Of a stretch of DNA of 64,000 nt, positions 1,754 to 8,308 are shown piece by piece. The stretch lies in NCBI GenBank assembly GCA_021772775.1, contig JAJFLH010000036.1, forward strand, positions 24,800 to 88,799. Direction: 5' to 3'. A model generated the notes under the pieces. It was given only the letters and a program-made list of their open reading frames with translations. It ran no database searches and was not told where the DNA came from. The stretch's first letter is position 1, and every line of letters starts with the position of its first letter. Origin of the DNA: Mariprofundus sp. (GTDB lineage Bacteria; Pseudomonadota; Zetaproteobacteria; Mariprofundales; Mariprofundaceae). A program made the translations under genes and the position numbers.

Positions 1754-2365
1754 ATGGCTTCCACTTTGATAGACCTGCTGAAAAAAATACCCATTGATCT
1801 GGGGCAGGAATCGGTAGCCGATCGCACCGAGGGCAAACAGATTGCCTTGCGACTCGTGCCTTCTGACGGTCAAGGAAAGTCAGCGCTTGACGTCGGCGCA
1901 CGCATGGGAGAACAGACCCGTTTTCTTACCCAACGCGGTTACAGTGTTACCTCAGTCGATATTGAACCGAGATTTGAGGGGTGCCTCAGCATGGATGCCA
2001 ATCAACCATTGCCATTTGAAGATAATCAATTTGACCTGATCTGGTGCTCAGAAGTGATTGAGCACCTACAAGATCCAGCTCACTGCATCAGTGAATTCCG
2101 CCGCATTACCCGTAGCGGTGGCCAGATCATCATGACCACTCCCAATAGCTACGCTTGGTTCTTCCGCCTCTTCGCTCTGTTCGGACTACCTCCAGAGCGC
2201 TTGCAGCGCGCAGATCATATTCACTTTTTCTCCCTCGATGAGGTGCGTGATATTGCTCCCGATGCTGATCTGTATGGTTATTTCCCTTACATGCTGATCA
2301 AACGCACTATTCGTAAATCTCTGAATTTACTTACCCCCACCTTTATCATCCATATCAAAACATGA
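1754..2365 (+). CDS. Class I SAM-dependent methyltransferase
   Basis: Motif I ALDVGARMG and LPFEDNQFDLIWCSEVIEHL. RBS GGAG upstream. Confidence 0.9.
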   Translation: MASTLIDLLKKIPIDLGQESVADRTEGKQIALRLVPSDGQGKSALDVGARMGEQTRFLTQRGYSVTSVDIEPRFEGCLSMDANQPLPFEDNQFDLIWCSEVIEHLQDPAHCISEFRRITRSGGQIIMTTPNSYAWFFRLFALFGLPPERLQRADHIHFFSLDEVRDIAPDADLYGYFPYMLIKRTIRKSLNLLTPTFIIHIKT

Positions 2366-3945
2366 TGCATATCTCCGTCAATCAGATGATCGAACGCCCC
2401 TGGCTCTGGCTGATCGGGCTCGCCGCAGTTCAGTTACTATTCATGCTGGGGGGCCACACCTTCTGGGACATTGATGAGCCGATCAATGCAAGCTGCAGCC
2501 GAGAAATGTTGGAGGCTGCCAATTGGTTGGTACCCATGTTCAATGGCGAGTTACGCACTGGAAAACCTATTCTAACCTACTGGTTTATGCTCACCTCATA
2601 CAGCTTGTTTGGCGTCAGCGAGTTTTCAGCCCGTCTACCCTCGGCAATATGCATCACGCTGTTAATGCTAAGCATTACCTATTTTTCTCGTCGCCTGCTC
2701 GGCGCAAAATATGGTCTTATTGCCGGTGGCCTGTTCATCACTAGCTTGCATATGACCGTCATTGGGCGAGCCGCTACACCTGATGCGGTGTTTCTGTTAT
2801 TTCTCTGCACCGGACTACTGGCCGGTTTGTGTTACTGTGTTGAGGAGTTCAAACCGAAAAAGATGTTATGGTTGGCTTATGCCTGCTTTGGCATCGCTGT
2901 GCTGGCCAAAGGACCAGTAGCGGTCGCTATGCCGGGCATGATTCTCGCTACCTGGCTACTGTTAACAGGGAACTTGCGCAAATGGTCATCATTTCACATT
3001 GGACGCGGCCTGCTTATTATCTTCGCTCTGGCGCTGCCATGGTATATCGCCGTATGGCTGCAAACTGATGGCGAATGGGTAGAACGTTTTCTGATCACCG
3101 ATAATGTTGGTCGTTTCCTCGCTCCGATGGAGGGGCATAAGGGCTTCCCCGGTTTTTATCTGCTAAGCCTCTTACTCGGCCTGTTCCCATGGACAGGTAT
3201 CCTGATTGGCACCCTGATCCACTCTACATGGAGACCGTCGCTGCTGAAGCAACAGCCGATGCGTGCCTTTCTGATCAGCTGGGTCGGCGTGTTCTTCATA
3301 TTTTTCACTATAGCCCGAACCCAATTACCCAACTATATGTTACCAGTCATGCCAGCGCTGATTTTGTTGATGGCCATGTGGCTACGCGATACAGCCAGGG
3401 AAACAGTGAACCGCTATCTACTGTGGAGCGCTGGCATCATCTCTGCTGCCCTACTCATCGGCGGTGGATTCGCCCTGCAACATCAATGGCCGGGAGACTG
3501 GTATTATGCATTCAGCTTCCTGCCAGTACTGCTAGCCGTGCTCATCGCCTGGCGACAGCGGGAAAAATCACTGCAGCTGATCACTGCAGGCATGGTTATG
3601 ATGGTCATCATACTGGCAAGCTGGGCTCTACCCGGAATTGATAACCACAAGGCCCCCCGCACCTTGGCTCAAAGCGCTGCCGAAGCCGGTTACGCCAAGG
3701 GAAGTCTGGCAGGCTACCGTTACTTTCAACCTTCGATGCTGTTCTATCATGGCAATAACACCTTGCCTGTACTGATCACACCAAAGGAGTTACTGGAATG
3801 GCTCGAACAAAAGCGAGTAGCCGTCGTCCCCGAGCGCTACATGGCCGAACTATCCCCTGAAATACAGGCTCGTTTGAATGTCATTAAACGCGCTTATGGG
3901 CTCTATGCCCGCCAGGATCTGTTGCTGGTCAGCTTGCGCCAATAA
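2362..3945 (+). CDS. ArnT/PMT-family (GT-C fold) lipid-carrier-dependent glycosyltransferase
   Basis: Multiple TM helices with motifs WDIDEP, FNGELRTGKPILTYW, EFSARLPSA, LAKGPVA and QLPNYMLP. Overlaps the methyltransferase by 4 bp. Confidence 0.88.
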   Translation: MMHISVNQMIERPWLWLIGLAAVQLLFMLGGHTFWDIDEPINASCSREMLEAANWLVPMFNGELRTGKPILTYWFMLTSYSLFGVSEFSARLPSAICITLLMLSITYFSRRLLGAKYGLIAGGLFITSLHMTVIGRAATPDAVFLLFLCTGLLAGLCYCVEEFKPKKMLWLAYACFGIAVLAKGPVAVAMPGMILATWLLLTGNLRKWSSFHIGRGLLIIFALALPWYIAVWLQTDGEWVERFLITDNVGRFLAPMEGHKGFPGFYLLSLLLGLFPWTGILIGTLIHSTWRPSLLKQQPMRAFLISWVGVFFIFFTIARTQLPNYMLPVMPALILLMAMWLRDTARETVNRYLLWSAGIISAALLIGGGFALQHQWPGDWYYAFSFLPVLLAVLIAWRQREKSLQLITAGMVMMVIILASWALPGIDNHKAPRTLAQSAAEAGYAKGSLAGYRYFQPSMLFYHGNNTLPVLITPKELLEWLEQKRVAVVPERYMAELSPEIQARLNVIKRAYGLYARQDLLLVSLRQ

Positions 3946-4383: not shown

Positions 4384-4764
4384 ATGTACGATCATCATCA
4401 GTATAAAGAGCTCCGAAACTTTAAAAGGTTTTCGATTGAGTTTCCTGTCGAGATTATTGGCTGGTCAAATCAGGCTGAGAAATTCTCCGATTTTGCCGAA
4501 ATGAGTAACATCTCAGATAATGGTTTATGCTTTTCTACCACCAATTCCGATTGGTATTCTATCTCTCAGCAATTGACTGTTAATGTCCACCTACCAGAAA
4601 CAGGGCTATTGAACAGCGGTATTGAATGCCAAGCAAGCGTAATGTGGATGCACTATATTGATCAGCAGTGCTCTGAAACTAAAGATCAAACGCTAATCGG
4701 TTTGTGCCTGGAGAGTTTGATGACATTTGAAACGCAAAAGTTAAAAGAGTTCGCCAAAGCTTAA
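4384..4764 (+). CDS. Stand-alone PilZ-domain protein (c-di-GMP receptor)
   Basis: RxxxR (RNFKR) and (D/N)xSxxG (NISDNG) motifs. RBS GAGG upstream. Confidence 0.85.
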   Translation: MYDHHQYKELRNFKRFSIEFPVEIIGWSNQAEKFSDFAEMSNISDNGLCFSTTNSDWYSISQQLTVNVHLPETGLLNSGIECQASVMWMHYIDQQCSETKDQTLIGLCLESLMTFETQKLKEFAKA

Positions 4765-5232: not shown

Positions 5233-7074
5233 TTACCCCCGTTTTGAGCGCAGTTCTGCCTGAATTTCAGCCACACGTTCACGGGTAAGCGGATAGAACC
5301 ACATCGATATGACAGCCAGGCTCAAAAACAGCACTGGAATTGCTAAATATGCACTACGCACCTTCAGCAGCGTATCATCGCTCAGCATTGTCTCCTGCCC
5401 TACTACGCCTGCCCAGGCCAGTAGCGCGCCACTGCCAAGTGCTACGATGCCAATAGCGGTTTTATAAACCAGCGCAAATACAGCGCTATATACACCCTCA
5501 CGGCGATGACCCGTATTGAGTTCATCCTCATCACAAATATCAGCCGCAAACGAGCCGTTTACCGCCCAGCAGGCACACAACCCCCAAGCAGCTACAACGA
5601 CAGGAATAATTTGCAGCCATGGATTTTCCGGTGTGAACAACCACCAGCTTGATGCATATCCGACAATGGAGATACTCAAACCAGTGAACAAGATAGTCTT
5701 TTTATCCAGCCGCTCACTCGCCCATGAGATCAGAGGCATGGCGAGAAACTGGCCAGTAACCTGAATAACAGTCATCACGCCACCAATCTCAGCGGCCAAC
5801 ATTTTATCCCCTTCGCAAACATAGAAGATGCCGATGTAGGTCATAAATGGCAGTGCAAAGAACAGCCCCATAAACACCGCAAATACCGAGCCCATCAACA
5901 TACGGAAACTCTTGTTCGTGGCGGTAAGTTTTATGGCCTTGAACAGCGGTAGATGCTCCTTTTTACGTTCACTCGATGCAAAGCGTTCACGGCATAAAAT
6001 AGCCGGTAACATAGTAGAGACCAACACCAACAGGCCGATGCAGACACCGACAATGCGTACACCCAGCACCTCATCACCACCCAGCCATGCCCCTGCCATT
6101 TGTGACCAAAGGTAGAGATAACCGACCAGCAGACTGGCGCAAAATGAAGCGACTAAACGATAGATTTGCAGATTGGTACGCTCTGAATAGTCGTCAGTCA
6201 ATTCAATACCCAGCCCCGAATAGGGAATCACGAAAACGGAGAAACTGAAATAGAACAGTAGGCAGACCAGTGCAAATGCCCCGAACATCTTCAGTGATGA
6301 ATAGGAGGTGATCCCAAATTGGTGCAACAAAGTGCTATCCAGCACATCAGCACTCGGCAAAATGCGCAGGCCAGCGGTGGTTTCTGCGCTAGCCTCGCTG
6401 GAGACTGCTGCCGTAACCGTTACAGATTGAGCTGCTTGCCAATTCTCCGACGTAAAGATCAATTGCGAGGGTTCAAGTTTCAAATGAATTGTCGCATCCC
6501 CATTCGCCACCGATTCGATGGTAAATGCGGTGGCCGCTTGTGGTGCCGACTTCAACACGACATTGAAACTGCCGGAAGTAGCATCGCTTGAAAGTCTGAC
6601 ATCCTTGCTGCTAACACCGTACCACGACAGAGAATCATGCAGTGCGGCGGCTTTTTGATTCTGCTCAGCAGCTTCAATAACAGGCCCATGCTGCAGATGT
6701 ACCGTGACTAGTTTAGGCAACTGCGGCATCAGTGAGGGCAGGAACCAGACAGCTGTAAAAAACAGCGTCATCAGAATCGAACCGACAAACATCCATGGCC
6801 GACGACGTCCCCAGCGCGATTCTGTGTTATCGGTCAAGTTCCCAATAATCGGATCAATGATGGCATCCAGAATACGGGAGACAGCCATCGCCAAGCCGAT
6901 AGCCAGTGTACTAAAGCCCAGTGCTACATTAAAGATCGGAAAAACCAGCGACAGGATGGCGGAGTTAGCAATATTTTCACCAAAACCACCTACACCCCAG
7001 CCCAGTTTGGTTTTAACCGGCAGCTTTCCTGCGGCCGGCCTCAGATCCGCAGAGCGCTGGCTCTCATCACTCAA
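5233..7074 (-). CDS. MFS sugar transporter, GPH/MelB family, with a large inserted extracytoplasmic domain
   Basis: GPH motifs SRILDAIIDPIIGNLTDNTESRWGRRRPW, ELTDDYSERT and ADICDEDELNTGHRREGVY. An insert of about 145 aa lies after TM3. Confidence 0.9.
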   Translation of the reverse strand: MSDESQRSADLRPAAGKLPVKTKLGWGVGGFGENIANSAILSLVFPIFNVALGFSTLAIGLAMAVSRILDAIIDPIIGNLTDNTESRWGRRRPWMFVGSILMTLFFTAVWFLPSLMPQLPKLVTVHLQHGPVIEAAEQNQKAAALHDSLSWYGVSSKDVRLSSDATSGSFNVVLKSAPQAATAFTIESVANGDATIHLKLEPSQLIFTSENWQAAQSVTVTAAVSSEASAETTAGLRILPSADVLDSTLLHQFGITSYSSLKMFGAFALVCLLFYFSFSVFVIPYSGLGIELTDDYSERTNLQIYRLVASFCASLLVGYLYLWSQMAGAWLGGDEVLGVRIVGVCIGLLVLVSTMLPAILCRERFASSERKKEHLPLFKAIKLTATNKSFRMLMGSVFAVFMGLFFALPFMTYIGIFYVCEGDKMLAAEIGGVMTVIQVTGQFLAMPLISWASERLDKKTILFTGLSISIVGYASSWWLFTPENPWLQIIPVVVAAWGLCACWAVNGSFAADICDEDELNTGHRREGVYSAVFALVYKTAIGIVALGSGALLAWAGVVGQETMLSDDTLLKVRSAYLAIPVLFLSLAVISMWFYPLTRERVAEIQAELRSKRG

Positions 7075-7077
7075 TGT

Positions 7078-8058
7078 TTAATTGCCAGCCTTAAGGTGAT
7101 CAATCACCGCCTGCGCCGTTGTAAAACACAAGCCTGTCACAGTATCAGCACAGCCATAATAGATCGCAATACGGCCACTCGGTGCATCCGTCAAAGCGGC
7201 ACAGGGGAAAGTAACATTCGGTACATCACCCACGCACTCATATTGCTCCCACGGTGCAATGAGGAAATTTTTGGAACGATGAATAACTTTCCATGGCTCA
7301 TCGAGATCAAGCAAAGCGGCACCAAAGCTGTAAACAAAACCGTTACAGGAGGTTAACACACCGTGATAAATCATCAGCCATCCTTCATTGGTCTCAATCG
7401 GGATTGGCCCTGCGCCAATTTTAGTGGACTGCCAGCCATCGGAAGTACCCATCACATGACGATGGCAGCCCCAATGCTCCATATCCGGACTCTGGCTGAC
7501 AAAAATGTCACCGAAAGGTGTATGGCCATTATCACTTGGACGTGACAACATCATATATTTACCGTTGATCTTGCGCGGAAACAGTACGCCATTGCGATTA
7601 AAGATCAGAAATGCATTTTCAAGCTGATGGAACTCTTTAAAATCCTTCGTCCACGCCACACCGATAGTCGGCCCATGATAACCGTTACACCAGGTGACAT
7701 AATAGCGGTCTTCGATCCAAACCACACGCGGGTCGTAACCATATTCCCAACCATTCACCTCAGGGTCTGCATTGATGAATTGAATGCGCTCATCATTGAT
7801 CTTCCAGTTGATACCATCATCACTGAAACCAACATGCAGCTGCATCTCACGCGCAGTTGAGTCACAACGGAACACACCTGCAAACTTGCCATTGAACGGA
7901 ACAGCAGCACTGTTGAACGTGCTATTCGCACCAAGAAAAGGATTGCGCGGAATAATTGGATTCTGGTCATAACGCCAGACCACTTCCTGAGAGTCCTGCG
8001 GTTTGTCCTGCCAAGGCATATTAGGCAACTCTTGCCCGATGATATCGATTTTGCTCAT
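7078..8058 (-). CDS. Glycoside hydrolase family 130 beta-mannoside phosphorylase (GH130_2-like)
   Basis: MPWQDKP...[43 protein letters not shown] and GDVPNVTFP are typical of GH130. Start set at MSKID (8058), with RBS AAGGA. Confidence 0.92.
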
Positions 8059-8308
8059 ATGTATTCCTTTGTTCGTGTTGATGGATTCGTCACTCAGGCT
8101 AGCCAGCAACCTGTCGTGCGGAGAAACAGTGGCCTGATTTAGGCCCAGCGTCAACGAAGAAACATCGTAACCGTTCCGCTCAGCCCTGATTCACTCAAGC
8201 TCTGCCTCAAACGTACTTATCTAGAAGAGTAAATTGCCTGCTTTTCCCTTGATTTTGGGTAAATAAGAAGCAAGCTAAACAGTCGATTATTCGTCATACC
8301 CCAAGCTA

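What the first reader, a model, noticed from the sequence alone, without database searches (positions are those of the whole stretch)
6295..6735. MFS sugar transporter with an Ig/Calx-beta-like domain inserted in an outer loop
Seen: about 145 hydrophilic residues (roughly 114-260) sit between TM3 and TM4, making the protein 613 aa. The insert includes SFNVVLKSAP and LIFTSENWQAAQSVTVTA. Known: this loop is short in MelB/GPH transporters and faces outward, and an 'L.FT..NW...Q.VTV.A' motif is typical of Ig-like beta-sandwich repeats in large surface proteins. Inference: a built-in periplasmic capture or lid domain on a secondary transporter, an architecture I do not know for GPH proteins.
Basis: partly seen in the sequence, partly recalled or inferred. 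Interest (0 to 1): 0.68.

Follow-up and report, generated by a model that had tools for sequence, protein, structure and literature searches.

The report
Sugar symporter with built-in periplasmic Ig-like domain
An inner-membrane sugar importer of an iron-oxidising Mariprofundus-type bacterium carries a folded, adhesin-derived Ig-like domain in a loop facing the periplasm; the papers I searched do not describe this design for bacterial sugar symporters, and what the domain does is untested.

Summary
ORF 5233-7074 (-) encodes a 613-aa GPH/MFS_2 symporter. Its Pfam match is split at profile position 93/94 by about 145 extra residues (114-257) between TM3 and TM4.

- **Fold:** AlphaFold2 (pLDDT 89, pTM 0.88) folds the insert as a nine-strand beta-sandwich.
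- **Side of the membrane:** the GRRRP loop before TM3 and the positive-inside count place it in the periplasm.
- **Not a chimera:** 34 homologues from independent assemblies (Mariprofundus, a few Gallionellaceae) share it. They form one clade on a tree built from the membrane core alone. The insert has dN/dS of about 0.15-0.3.
- **Origin:** its core (164-226) is homologous to tandem repeats of giant surface proteins (hhalign 97.4%; 12,273 proteins by HMM search). It lacks their acidic motifs. It is not Calx-beta; the weak affinities are to fn3_6 and other Ig-like folds.
- **Context:** the gene is always coupled to a GH130 beta-1,4-mannoside phosphorylase 68% identical to UhgbMP. The nearest insert-less relative has the same partner.
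- **Recurrence:** an unrelated insert sits in the same loop in Bacteroidota and Calditrichota relatives.

The likely function is an accessory periplasmic module for beta-mannoside uptake (substrate capture, partner docking or gating). This part is inferred only. I rate it a new variant of a known kind, of moderate interest.

The parts
7078..8058 (-). GH130 (subfamily 2-like) beta-1,4-mannoside phosphorylase gene, first gene of the two-gene cassette. The ORF is open from TTG at 8154; the likely start is ATG at 8058, giving 326 aa like the homologues.
   Evidence: Pfam Glyco_hydro_130, 231 bits. PDB UhgbMP 4UDG E 8e-152, RaMP2 5AYD E 2e-151, TM1225 E 3e-133. 68% identity to UhgbMP over 314 columns. 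Present next to the transporter in all 12 insert-bearing loci.
5233..7074 (-). GPH/MFS_2 cation:sugar symporter gene, 613 aa. TTG start lies 3 nt after the GH130 stop codon.
   Evidence: Pfam MFS_2, 201 bits. Foldseek of the model gives MFSD2A and MelB, TM-score to target 0.78-0.85.
6736..7074 (-). N-terminal tail, TM1-TM3 and the cytoplasmic loop 2-3 motif D70..D74..GRRRP (residues 1-113).
   Evidence: AF2 helices 20-51, 56-83 and 92-109. Aligns to MelB residues 4/5-90/91.
6304..6735 (-). Periplasmic insert in the TM3-TM4 loop (residues 114-257): a nine-strand beta-sandwich plus linkers.
   Evidence: AF2 strands 121-127, 152-154, 158-161, 167-174, 182-189, 198-201, 204-207, 216-222 and 232-240. 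The same strands appear in the stand-alone model. dN/dS 0.15-0.3.
6643..6693 (-). Variable, low-confidence loop inside the insert (residues 128-144).
   Evidence: pLDDT 58-62 in this block. Column identity 0.12-0.38 among 34 homologues, with length variation.
6397..6585 (-). Core of the beta-sandwich (residues 164-226), homologous to about 110-aa tandem repeats of giant surface proteins. Contains SF.V.L...P and L.FT..NW...Q.VTV.
   Evidence: hhalign A3 vs A4: 97.4%, E 1.3e-11, 61 columns. Repeat hits in other zetaproteobacterial genomes. 12,273 proteins in the 1.84-billion-protein library.
6283..6369 (-). Highly conserved last strand and pre-TM4 segment, LRILPxxDVLxSPxLxxxGITSxSxLxMF (residues 236-264). 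Its second half also exists in the insert-less sister proteins.
   Evidence: Conservation table. Alignment with P0035/P0036. Spacing of 72 instead of 47 in those sisters.
5236..6303 (-). TM4-TM12 of the symporter (residues 258-613).
   Evidence: Pfam MFS_2 profile 94-427 at residues 259-598. AF2 helices.

Best explanation
**Shown.** The gene encodes a 12-helix GPH-family (MelB/MFSD2A-like) cation:glycoside symporter. It is translationally coupled to a cytoplasmic GH130 beta-1,4-mannoside phosphorylase. Together they form a self-contained two-gene cassette. One Ig-like (fn3-like) beta-sandwich, copied from the tandem repeats of giant surface adhesin-like proteins, was inserted once into the periplasmic TM3-TM4 loop. 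This happened in the ancestor of a clade now found in about a third of Mariprofundus species and in a few Gallionellaceae. The insert lost the repeats' acidic DD..EG/DND motifs. It gained transporter-specific conserved flanks (PQLPKxVTVH, DSLSWY, LRILPxxDVL) and is kept by purifying selection.

**Inferred.** The cassette imports short beta-mannosides (manno-oligosaccharides or Man-beta-1,4-GlcNAc-type fragments) and cleaves them to mannose-1-phosphate. The beta-sandwich is anchored by both ends to the N-lobe beside cavity-lining TM4. It acts as an accessory periplasmic module that captures or hands over the oligosaccharide at the mouth of the transporter, like a built-in binding module. Confidence in the architecture is above 0.95. 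The confidence value given here is for the capture function.
For: - **Architecture:** split MFS_2 match. AF2 pLDDT 89 and pTM 0.88 with a nine-strand sandwich. Topology by the GRRRP loop, the MelB alignment and positive-inside counts.
- **Conservation:** 34 insert-bearing homologues of 584-632 aa. They form one clade with 100/100 support on a tree built without the insert. dN/dS is 0.167 for the insert against 0.066 for the core in the least saturated pair.
- **Origin:** hhalign 97.4% to adhesin repeats, and 12,273 hits whose 150 best-scoring listed members all carry 14-67 repeats.
- **Substrate context:** the GH130 is 68% identical to UhgbMP, and E is about 1e-151 to RaMP2. The pair is present in all 12 loci and nothing else is shared. 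The insert-less sister P0035 is also directly downstream of a GH130.
- **A periplasmic module is useful at this position:** an unrelated insert of 122-129 aa lies in the same loop of a separate GPH clade, in a locus with GH94 and GH35-like genes and a TonB-dependent receptor. Scan notes report more cases.
Against: - No carbohydrate-binding-module family matches the insert.
- Foldseek finds only generic Ig-like folds, with best E 0.006 and TM-score to query at most 0.48.
- The parent repeats are usually structural spacers, not lectins (general knowledge).
- The best-conserved insert-specific blocks are the sequence-terminal segments adjoining TM3 and TM4 (117-126, 236-245) plus an internal 145-155 block, and several intervening stretches vary. 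This fits a fixed mounting or gating role at least as well as a distal binding site.
- I had no model coordinates, so the interface was not inspected.
- The hosts are known as obligate chemolithoautotrophs (general knowledge), so sugar import itself is unproven.
Confidence: 0.38

Rival explanations
1. Docking domain. The beta-sandwich binds a protein, not a sugar. It would tether the symporter to a periplasmic or outer-membrane partner (a porin, TonB-dependent receptor or periplasmic enzyme) or mediate oligomerisation. The Ig-like extracellular domain of mammalian PepT1/2, reported to bind trypsin, would be the analogue.
For: - The domain descends from adhesin-type repeats.
- No CBM signature.
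- The closest folds include chaperone-usher Ig domains that bind proteins.
- The PepT1/2 extracellular-domain precedent (PMC4597091, listed).
Against: - No partner gene is conserved next to the cassette. Only the GH130 and the symporter are shared by the 12 loci.
- The cassette occurs in two distant lineages (Zetaproteobacteria and Gallionellaceae), which argues against dependence on a lineage-specific partner.
Confidence: 0.24
2. Intramolecular gate or stabiliser. The domain packs on the periplasmic face of the N-lobe and modulates the outward-open/closed equilibrium, or protects and stabilises the transporter in an iron-oxide-precipitating periplasm. It would have no ligand of its own.
For: - The strongest insert-specific conservation lies in the sequence-terminal segments adjoining TM3 and TM4 (117-126, 236-264), with a further internal block at 145-155, and several intervening stretches are variable.
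- pTM of 0.88 for the whole chain suggests a fixed position relative to the membrane domain.
- The pre-TM4 extension already existed in the insert-less sisters.
Against: - Insert-less relatives with the same GH130 partner apparently work without it.
- Independent recruitment of unrelated sandwiches at the same loop in sugar-utilisation loci fits a substrate-related role better than a habitat-specific shield.
Confidence: 0.22
3. Nearly neutral passenger. A domain was captured by illegitimate recombination with an adhesin gene and is tolerated in a permissive loop without contributing to function.
For: - The insert evolves 3-4 times faster than the core.
- Distribution is patchy: 12 of 133 zetaproteobacterial genomes and 3 of 201 in the Gallionellaceae-type family.
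Against: - dN/dS is well below 1 (0.15-0.3).
- Polar and aromatic residues outside the fold core are fully or nearly fully conserved (D147, W151, Y152, R237, D243).
- No frameshifted or shortened versions appear among the 34 homologues, despite synonymous divergence near saturation.
Confidence: 0.1
4. Export instead of import. The GH130 works in the synthetic direction (mannose-1-phosphate to beta-mannoside). The symporter-like protein then exports the product, for example for extracellular polysaccharide or stalk material, and the periplasmic domain guides the product.
For: - Hosts are autotrophs that secrete polysaccharide-rich iron structures (general knowledge; PMC8250860 read).
- GH130 enzymes are reversible in vitro, and a GH130 'mannoside synthase' exists in the PDB (9ERG).
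- The genome has only this one GH130 and one clear GPH transporter.
Against: - The enzyme is closest to catabolic phosphorylases.
- The insert-less sister pair sits among catabolic genes: fucosidase, sulfatase and ROK kinase.
- GPH proteins are known as cation-coupled importers.
- The stalk pan-genome paper contains none of the search terms MFS, major facilitator or phosphorylase.
Confidence: 0.05
5. Artefact: chimeric assembly, a fused gene call or a pseudogene.
For: None found.
Against: - The same architecture occurs in isolates (M. ferrooxydans PV-1, M. micogutta ET2, M. erugo P3, Mariprofundus sp. KV) and in many independent MAGs.
- The reading frame is continuous, the selection is purifying and the fold is confident.
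Confidence: 0.01

Closest known systems
MelB / GPH family symporters (TC 2.A.2, Pfam MFS_2), including eukaryotic MFSD2A
   Same: - 12-helix MFS fold with the loop 2-3 D..D..GRRRP motif.
- Asp70 and Asp74 align with the two TM2 aspartates of the MelB cation site. The MelB numbering D55/D59 is from memory; the alignment is.
- Best sequence and fold matches in the PDB.
   Different: - MelB has only a few residues between TM3 and TM4. Here a beta-sandwich of about 145 aa sits there.
- The score against the NCBIfam gph model is below its cut-off (182 vs 231 bits).
- The residues aligned with MelB K18/D19 read E33/N34 (sequence, plus memory of MelB).
GH130 + GPH symporter beta-mannoside pathways of Bacteroides fragilis and Ruminococcus albus (mannobiose symporter with a mannoside phosphorylase); UhgbMP and RaMP2
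   Same: The gene pairing of a cation symporter with a cytoplasmic GH130 phosphorylase. The enzyme is 68% identical to UhgbMP.
   Different: - Those symporters are, to my knowledge, ordinary-length GPH proteins.
- No convincing cellobiose-2-epimerase was found in the genome; the one GlcNAc_2-epim match is weak (27.4 bits, just over the 23.4-bit cut-off) and covers only part of a 756-aa frame. No mannanase lies in the cassette.
- The host is an iron-oxidising autotroph.
Mammalian PepT1/PepT2 (SLC15) extracellular domain
   Same: An MFS transporter with Ig-like beta-sandwich domain(s) inserted in an outward-facing loop (PMC4597091).
   Different: A different MFS family (POT), a different loop (TM9-TM10, C-lobe) and two domains, in eukaryotes. 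There is no sequence relationship.
Tandem ~110-aa Ig-like repeats of giant bacterial surface or adhesin-like proteins (weak fn3_6 affinity; no Pfam model of their own found here)
   Same: The core motif SF.V.L...P ... L.FT..NW...Q.V.V.A and the fold.
   Different: - The insert is a single copy.
- It lacks the VDD..EG and DND acidic motifs.
- It carries extra strands and linkers that join it to TM3 and TM4.
Other GPH symporters with TM3-TM4 inserts: the Bacteroidota/Calditrichota clade L014-L017, and the beta-glucan-locus cases noted by this scan
   Same: The same loop, similar size (122-175 aa), beta-rich, in oligosaccharide-utilisation loci that also encode glycoside hydrolases or phosphorylases.
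   Different: No detectable homology between the inserts (hhalign 0.7%). The clades are separate on the core tree, so the acquisitions were independent.

Membership tests
GPH cation:sugar symporters (Pfam MFS_2 / TC 2.A.2) | Match to the family HMM above the curated threshold | tested here: met
   PF13347: 201.4 bits against a cut-off of 27, in two stretches.
GPH cation:sugar symporters (Pfam MFS_2 / TC 2.A.2) | NCBIfam TIGR00792 'gph' subfamily cut-off | tested here: not met
   182.5 bits against a cut-off of 231.35. The match is split by the insert, so this is a divergent member rather than a non-member.
GPH cation:sugar symporters (Pfam MFS_2 / TC 2.A.2) | Twelve transmembrane helices in two six-helix bundles, with N and C termini inside | tested here: met
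   AF2 model with 12 long helices. TM-score to target 0.78-0.85 against MelB and MFSD2A. K/R count 20 inside against 0 in the short outside loops.
GPH cation:sugar symporters (Pfam MFS_2 / TC 2.A.2) | Cation-coupled sugar transport activity | not testable with these tools
   Needs uptake assays.
Calx-beta domain (PF03160) | Match to the Calx-beta HMM | tested here: not met
   No Calx-beta hit at E <= 1 for the window insert or any of the 13 aligned inserts.
Ig-like / fn3-like beta-sandwich | Two-sheet sandwich of 7-9 strands predicted with confidence, with fold matches to Ig-like domains | tested here: met
   - Nine strands, pLDDT about 90 in context.
- Foldseek top hits are the fn3_6 domains of subtilases, FimC-type chaperones and MSP domains. 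They are weak: E >= 0.006, TM-score to query <= 0.48.
- fn3_6 HMM at E 0.04-0.14 in 4 of 13 inserts.
Tandem-repeat domain of giant surface proteins | Profile-level homology to the repeat unit | tested here: met
   hhalign 97.4%, E 1.3e-11. hmmsearch finds 12,273 proteins; the 150 best-scoring listed each have 14-67 matched stretches.
Tandem-repeat domain of giant surface proteins | Acidic VDD..EG and terminal DND motifs; occurrence in tandem | tested here: not met
   The insert reads VTVTAAVSSEA where the repeats read VTVTAVDDxVxEG. It has no DND and is a single copy.
Carbohydrate-binding module (any Pfam CBM family) | Match to a CBM family model or a significant fold match to a CBM | tested here: not met
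   No CBM family appears among the Pfam hits. No CBM appears among the top Foldseek matches. Binding itself was not tested.
GH130 subfamily-2-type beta-1,4-mannoside phosphorylase (neighbour gene) | Family HMM, close similarity to characterised phosphorylases, and the catalytic Asp in the YDPR motif | tested here: met
   PF04041, 231 bits. 68% identity to UhgbMP with YGYDPRV conserved. The assignment of that Asp as the proton donor is from memory of the UhgbMP literature.

The most novel reading that the evidence does not exclude
The TM3-TM4 loop of GPH oligosaccharide symporters is a recurrent landing site. Unrelated periplasmic beta-sandwich modules have been recruited there independently: an adhesin repeat in this clade, a different sandwich in Bacteroidota/Calditrichota, and CBM-like domains in beta-glucan loci elsewhere. 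In this reading they serve as built-in substrate-binding domains. Secondary transporters would then have their own equivalent of the binding proteins of ABC and TRAP systems.
Probability: 0.3. Interest if true: 0.75.

Novelty: new variant of a known kind. Interest (0 to 1): 0.5.

Why it matters
Bacterial MFS sugar symporters are textbook 'bare' 12-helix proteins. A 2026 review of bacterial glycoside transporters gives 400-550 aa as the norm and names only the cytoplasmic IIA tail of LacS as an exception (PMC13543919).

A conserved, selected, folded periplasmic domain inside such a transporter would show that secondary carriers can gain extracytoplasmic accessory modules. That holds whether the domain captures substrate, docks a partner or gates the carrier. 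It is also a clean example of domain shuffling from an adhesin repeat into a membrane protein loop.

The cassette also bears on iron oxidisers regarded as obligate autotrophs. It suggests they can take up and phosphorolyse beta-mannosides, which would affect how their carbon budget and extracellular polysaccharide turnover are viewed.

The construct is small and could be tested directly in E. coli.

Tried and rejected
- **Calx-beta identity:** rejected. No HMM hit in 13 inserts.
- **CBM identity:** no support from Pfam or Foldseek.
- **Close structural relative of the insert in the PDB:** none. Best E is 0.006 and the hits are generic Ig folds. Sequence profiles of the insert and of the repeats find nothing useful in the PDB.
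- **Homology between this insert and the Bacteroidota/Calditrichota insert:** rejected (hhalign 0.7%).
- **Longer matches L022 and L037 as further insert types:** rejected. They are tandem or adjacent transporter genes read through stop codons.
- **Conserved third gene in the cassette (partner, regulator or outer-membrane component):** none found.
- **Cellobiose-2-epimerase route as in B. fragilis:** only a weak partial match in the genome.
- **Link to stalk-formation genes or published iron-oxidiser comparative genomics:** the papers read do not discuss the cassette. Two contain none of the search terms for the transporter or a GH130-type enzyme, and the third mentions glycoside hydrolases only generically.
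- **Read mapping and expression:** The chimera question was settled by independent assemblies instead.
- **Position of the sandwich over the transport path:** not assessable. Model coordinates are not returned by the tools.
Full report
**1. Observation**

The minus-strand ORF 5233..7074 encodes 613 aa. The finding's coordinates 6295-6735 are residues 114-260, and both quoted peptides are there. Pfam MFS_2 matches at 201 bits, but in two pieces. The profile resumes at position 94 at residue 259. A whole-genome search with the same model places profile 3-94 and 94-427 on either side of the segment.

The distance from the loop 2-3 motif GRRRP to the TM4 motif IPYS varies by group:

| Group | Spacing (residues) |
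|---|---|
| This protein | 189 |
| Insert-less relatives where both motifs were found | mostly 47 (range 44-48) |
| Small sister group (P0035, P0036, L013) | 71-72 |
| The 34 close full-length homologues | 163-201 |

The transporter therefore really has about 140-145 extra residues between TM3 and TM4.

**2. Fold and side of the membrane**

AlphaFold2 was run on a 60-sequence alignment and gave mean pLDDT 89 and pTM 0.88. It predicts twelve long helices. Between helix 92-109 (TM3) and helix 258-291 (TM4) it predicts nine beta-strands at pLDDT of about 90, interrupted by one low-confidence loop at 128-150. A stand-alone model of the insert from 13 sequences reproduces the same strands at pLDDT 73. 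The whole model matches MFSD2A and MelB (TM-score to target 0.78-0.85).

The N-terminal part aligns with MelB residues 4/5-90/91. The insert follows the strongly basic GRRRP loop and one helix. Cytoplasmic loops and tails hold 20 K/R, the five short periplasmic loops hold none, and the insert is acidic with 7 K/R against 13 D/E. By MelB topology (established knowledge) and by the positive-inside rule, the insert is periplasmic. This is a strong inference, not an experiment.

**3. Not an artefact, and under selection**

- Thirty-three further proteins of 584-632 aa carry the insert at 62-94% identity. They come from ENA, JGI, NCBI and Logan assemblies.
- Twelve species-representative genomes carry it. 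These include the isolates Mariprofundus ferrooxydans PV-1, M. micogutta ET2, M. erugo P3 and Mariprofundus sp. KV, plus two betaproteobacterial MAGs labelled Nitrosomonadales and Burkholderiales. Related proteins are named Gallionella.
- On a maximum-likelihood tree built with the insert cut out, the insert-bearing proteins form one clade (100/100). That clade is nested within insert-less GPH proteins, with P0035 and P0036 as its nearest relatives.
- Nei-Gojobori dN/dS is 0.15-0.3 for the insert against 0.05-0.1 for the membrane core. The least saturated pair gives 0.167 against 0.066 at dS 0.8.
- The conserved blocks are:
  - 117-126 (PQLPKxVxVH);
  - 145-155 (LxDxLSWY);
  - the fold core F170/L174/P178/F184 together with 202-216 (PxxLxFTxxNWxxxQ);
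  - 236-264 (LRxLPxxDxL...GIxSxSxLxMF).
- The stretches 128-144, 187-201 and 223-235 vary.

**4. Where the domain came from**

A profile of the insert finds tandem repeats in large ORFs (1,090-6,578 aa) of other zetaproteobacterial genomes. Examples are L081 985-4248 and L083. A profile-profile comparison with eight such repeats gives 97.4% probability and E 1.3e-11 over residues 164-226.

Against 1.84 billion representative proteins, the insert profile hits 12,273 proteins at E <= 0.001. The 150 best-scoring hits listed are giants of 1.6-7.9 kaa, each with 14-67 matched stretches. These repeats have no strong Pfam model. They sum to weak fn3_6 hits, and the insert itself touches fn3_6 weakly (E 0.04-0.14 in 4 of 13 inserts). 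There is no Calx-beta hit and no CBM hit.

Foldseek of the insert against the PDB gives only generic Ig-like folds: the fn3_6 domains of plant subtilases, FimC-type chaperones and MSP domains. The best E is 0.006 and the TM-score to query is at most 0.48.

The insert lacks the repeats' VDD..EG and DND acidic motifs. It has extra N- and C-terminal elements that the repeats lack.

**5. Context**

The symporter's TTG start lies 3 nt after the stop of a GH130 gene. That enzyme matches UhgbMP (4UDG, E 8e-152, 68% identity), RaMP2 (5AYD) and TM1225. These are characterised beta-1,4-mannoside phosphorylases. The YGYDPRV motif is conserved; it contains the Asp that the UhgbMP literature assigns as proton donor (from memory).

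In all 12 loci the GH130 and the symporter are adjacent, and no other gene is shared. Here the pair sits between a PilZ gene and purE/purD/purH. The insert-less relative P0035 is also immediately downstream of a GH130, among fucosidase, sulfatase and ROK-kinase genes. The enzyme-transporter pairing therefore predates the insertion.

The window's genome has one GH130 and one clear GPH transporter. It has no convincing cellobiose-2-epimerase.

The distribution is patchy. It is found in 12 of 133 zetaproteobacterial genomes, all in one genus. It is found in 3 of 201 sampled genomes of the family holding L007. GH130 identity of 91-92% between the two proteobacterial classes points to horizontal transfer. 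Synonymous sites are nearly saturated, so the transfer was not recent.

**6. A second, independent insert at the same place**

GPH proteins of Bacteroidota and Calditrichota MAGs (L014-L017) carry 122-129 extra residues in the same loop. They form a separate, fully supported clade. Their insert shows no homology to this one (hhalign 0.7%). In L014 the gene sits with GH94 and GH35-like genes, two T9SS-tailed (Por_Secre_tail) proteins, one of them carrying a CBM9 domain, and a TonB-dependent receptor.

Notes from this scan describe further GPH symporters with TM3-TM4 beta-sandwich inserts in beta-glucan loci. I treat these as leads only. My own L014-L017 result is an independent instance of the same pattern.

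**7. Mechanism**

*Shown:* the architecture, the conservation, the origin of the domain and the pairing with the GH130.

*Inferred from the families involved:* the cassette takes up short beta-mannosides by cation symport and phosphorolyses them to mannose-1-phosphate.

In MFS proteins TM3 is a peripheral support helix and TM4 lines the central cavity (established knowledge). A domain tied between them must therefore sit on the periplasmic face of the N-lobe, next to the entrance. What it does there is open. My ranking is:

| Reading | Confidence |
|---|---|
| Substrate capture or hand-over | 0.38 |
| Partner docking | 0.24 |
| Gating or stabilisation | 0.22 |
| Neutral passenger | 0.10 |
| Export of a GH130-made mannoside | 0.05 |
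| Artefact | 0.01 |

- **For capture:** unrelated sandwiches were recruited repeatedly at this loop in sugar loci.
- **Against capture:** there is no CBM signature. The parent repeats are usually spacers. The best-conserved insert-specific residues lie in the sequence-terminal segments adjoining TM3 and TM4.

**8. Comparison and novelty**

The closest families are MelB/GPH for the carrier and the GH130-plus-symporter mannoside pathways of gut bacteria for the cassette. PepT1/2 is the only well-known MFS protein with Ig-like outward domains, but it differs in family, loop and kingdom (PMC4597091).

A 2026 review of bacterial glycoside transporters states that MFS glycoside carriers are 400-550 aa and gives only the C-terminal IIA domain of LacS as an exception (PMC13543919). 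Searches for this cassette in iron-oxidiser genomics papers found nothing.

I class it as a new variant of a known kind. The finding is real and interesting for transporter evolution and mechanism, but its function is unproven, and analogous cases are already noted within this scan.

**9. Limits**

- No model coordinates were available, so the interface was not inspected.
- dS is near saturation for most pairs.
- Residue roles in MelB and UhgbMP are quoted from memory.

Noticed in passing
L014:8286-8672, L015:8298-8705, L016:8286-8672, L017:727-1134: GPH symporters of Bacteroidota and Calditrichota MAGs carry an unrelated insert of 122-129 aa (motif AWFEIAGDD...IQLAWS) in the same TM3-TM4 loop. 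In L014 the gene lies with GH94, GH35/GlmA-like, T9SS-tailed and TonB-dependent receptor genes.
   Followed up: partly
Proteins P0071, P0074, P0076, P0077, P0081-P0086, P0089-P0091 and P0095: A group of GPH transporters of 776-790 aa has a GH17 (PF00332) domain fused after the MFS_2 part, in the C-terminal roughly 100 residues. On which side of the membrane it lies was not examined.
   Followed up: partly
L081:985-4248: A 1087-aa zetaproteobacterial surface protein has an N-terminal signal-like segment, many 'W..G....T S.DG..W' propeller-like repeats and four of the adhesin repeats related to the insert. It ends in a Gly-rich segment, a hydrophobic helix and RRRK, which looks like a GlyGly-CTERM or PEP-CTERM-type sorting signal. 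No Pfam family matched significantly.
   Followed up: no
window 7078-8154 vs L006:1614-2711 and L007:6968-7948: The GH130 is 91-92% identical in protein between Zetaproteobacteria and Gallionellaceae-type MAGs, higher than the transporter (76-77%). The flanking genes differ in every locus. The two-gene cassette moves horizontally between iron-oxidiser lineages.
   Followed up: partly
P0035, P0036, L013:7908-9467: The nearest insert-less relatives already have a 25-residue extension before TM4 (L.SP.L...GI.....L.MF), so the spacing is 72 instead of 47. The beta-sandwich was added upstream of this pre-existing periplasmic segment.
   Followed up: partly
window 6704-7081 (+) and 6319-6591 (+): Long open frames lie on the strand opposite the transporter. 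One is 'conserved' in the related loci only because it shadows the transporter gene. These are not genes.
   Followed up: yes
window 2362-3945 (+) and 4384-4764 (+): Downstream of the cassette, on the other strand, lie a PMT_2/ArnT-like glycosyltransferase and a small PilZ-domain protein. Neither is conserved next to the cassette in other genomes.
   Followed up: no
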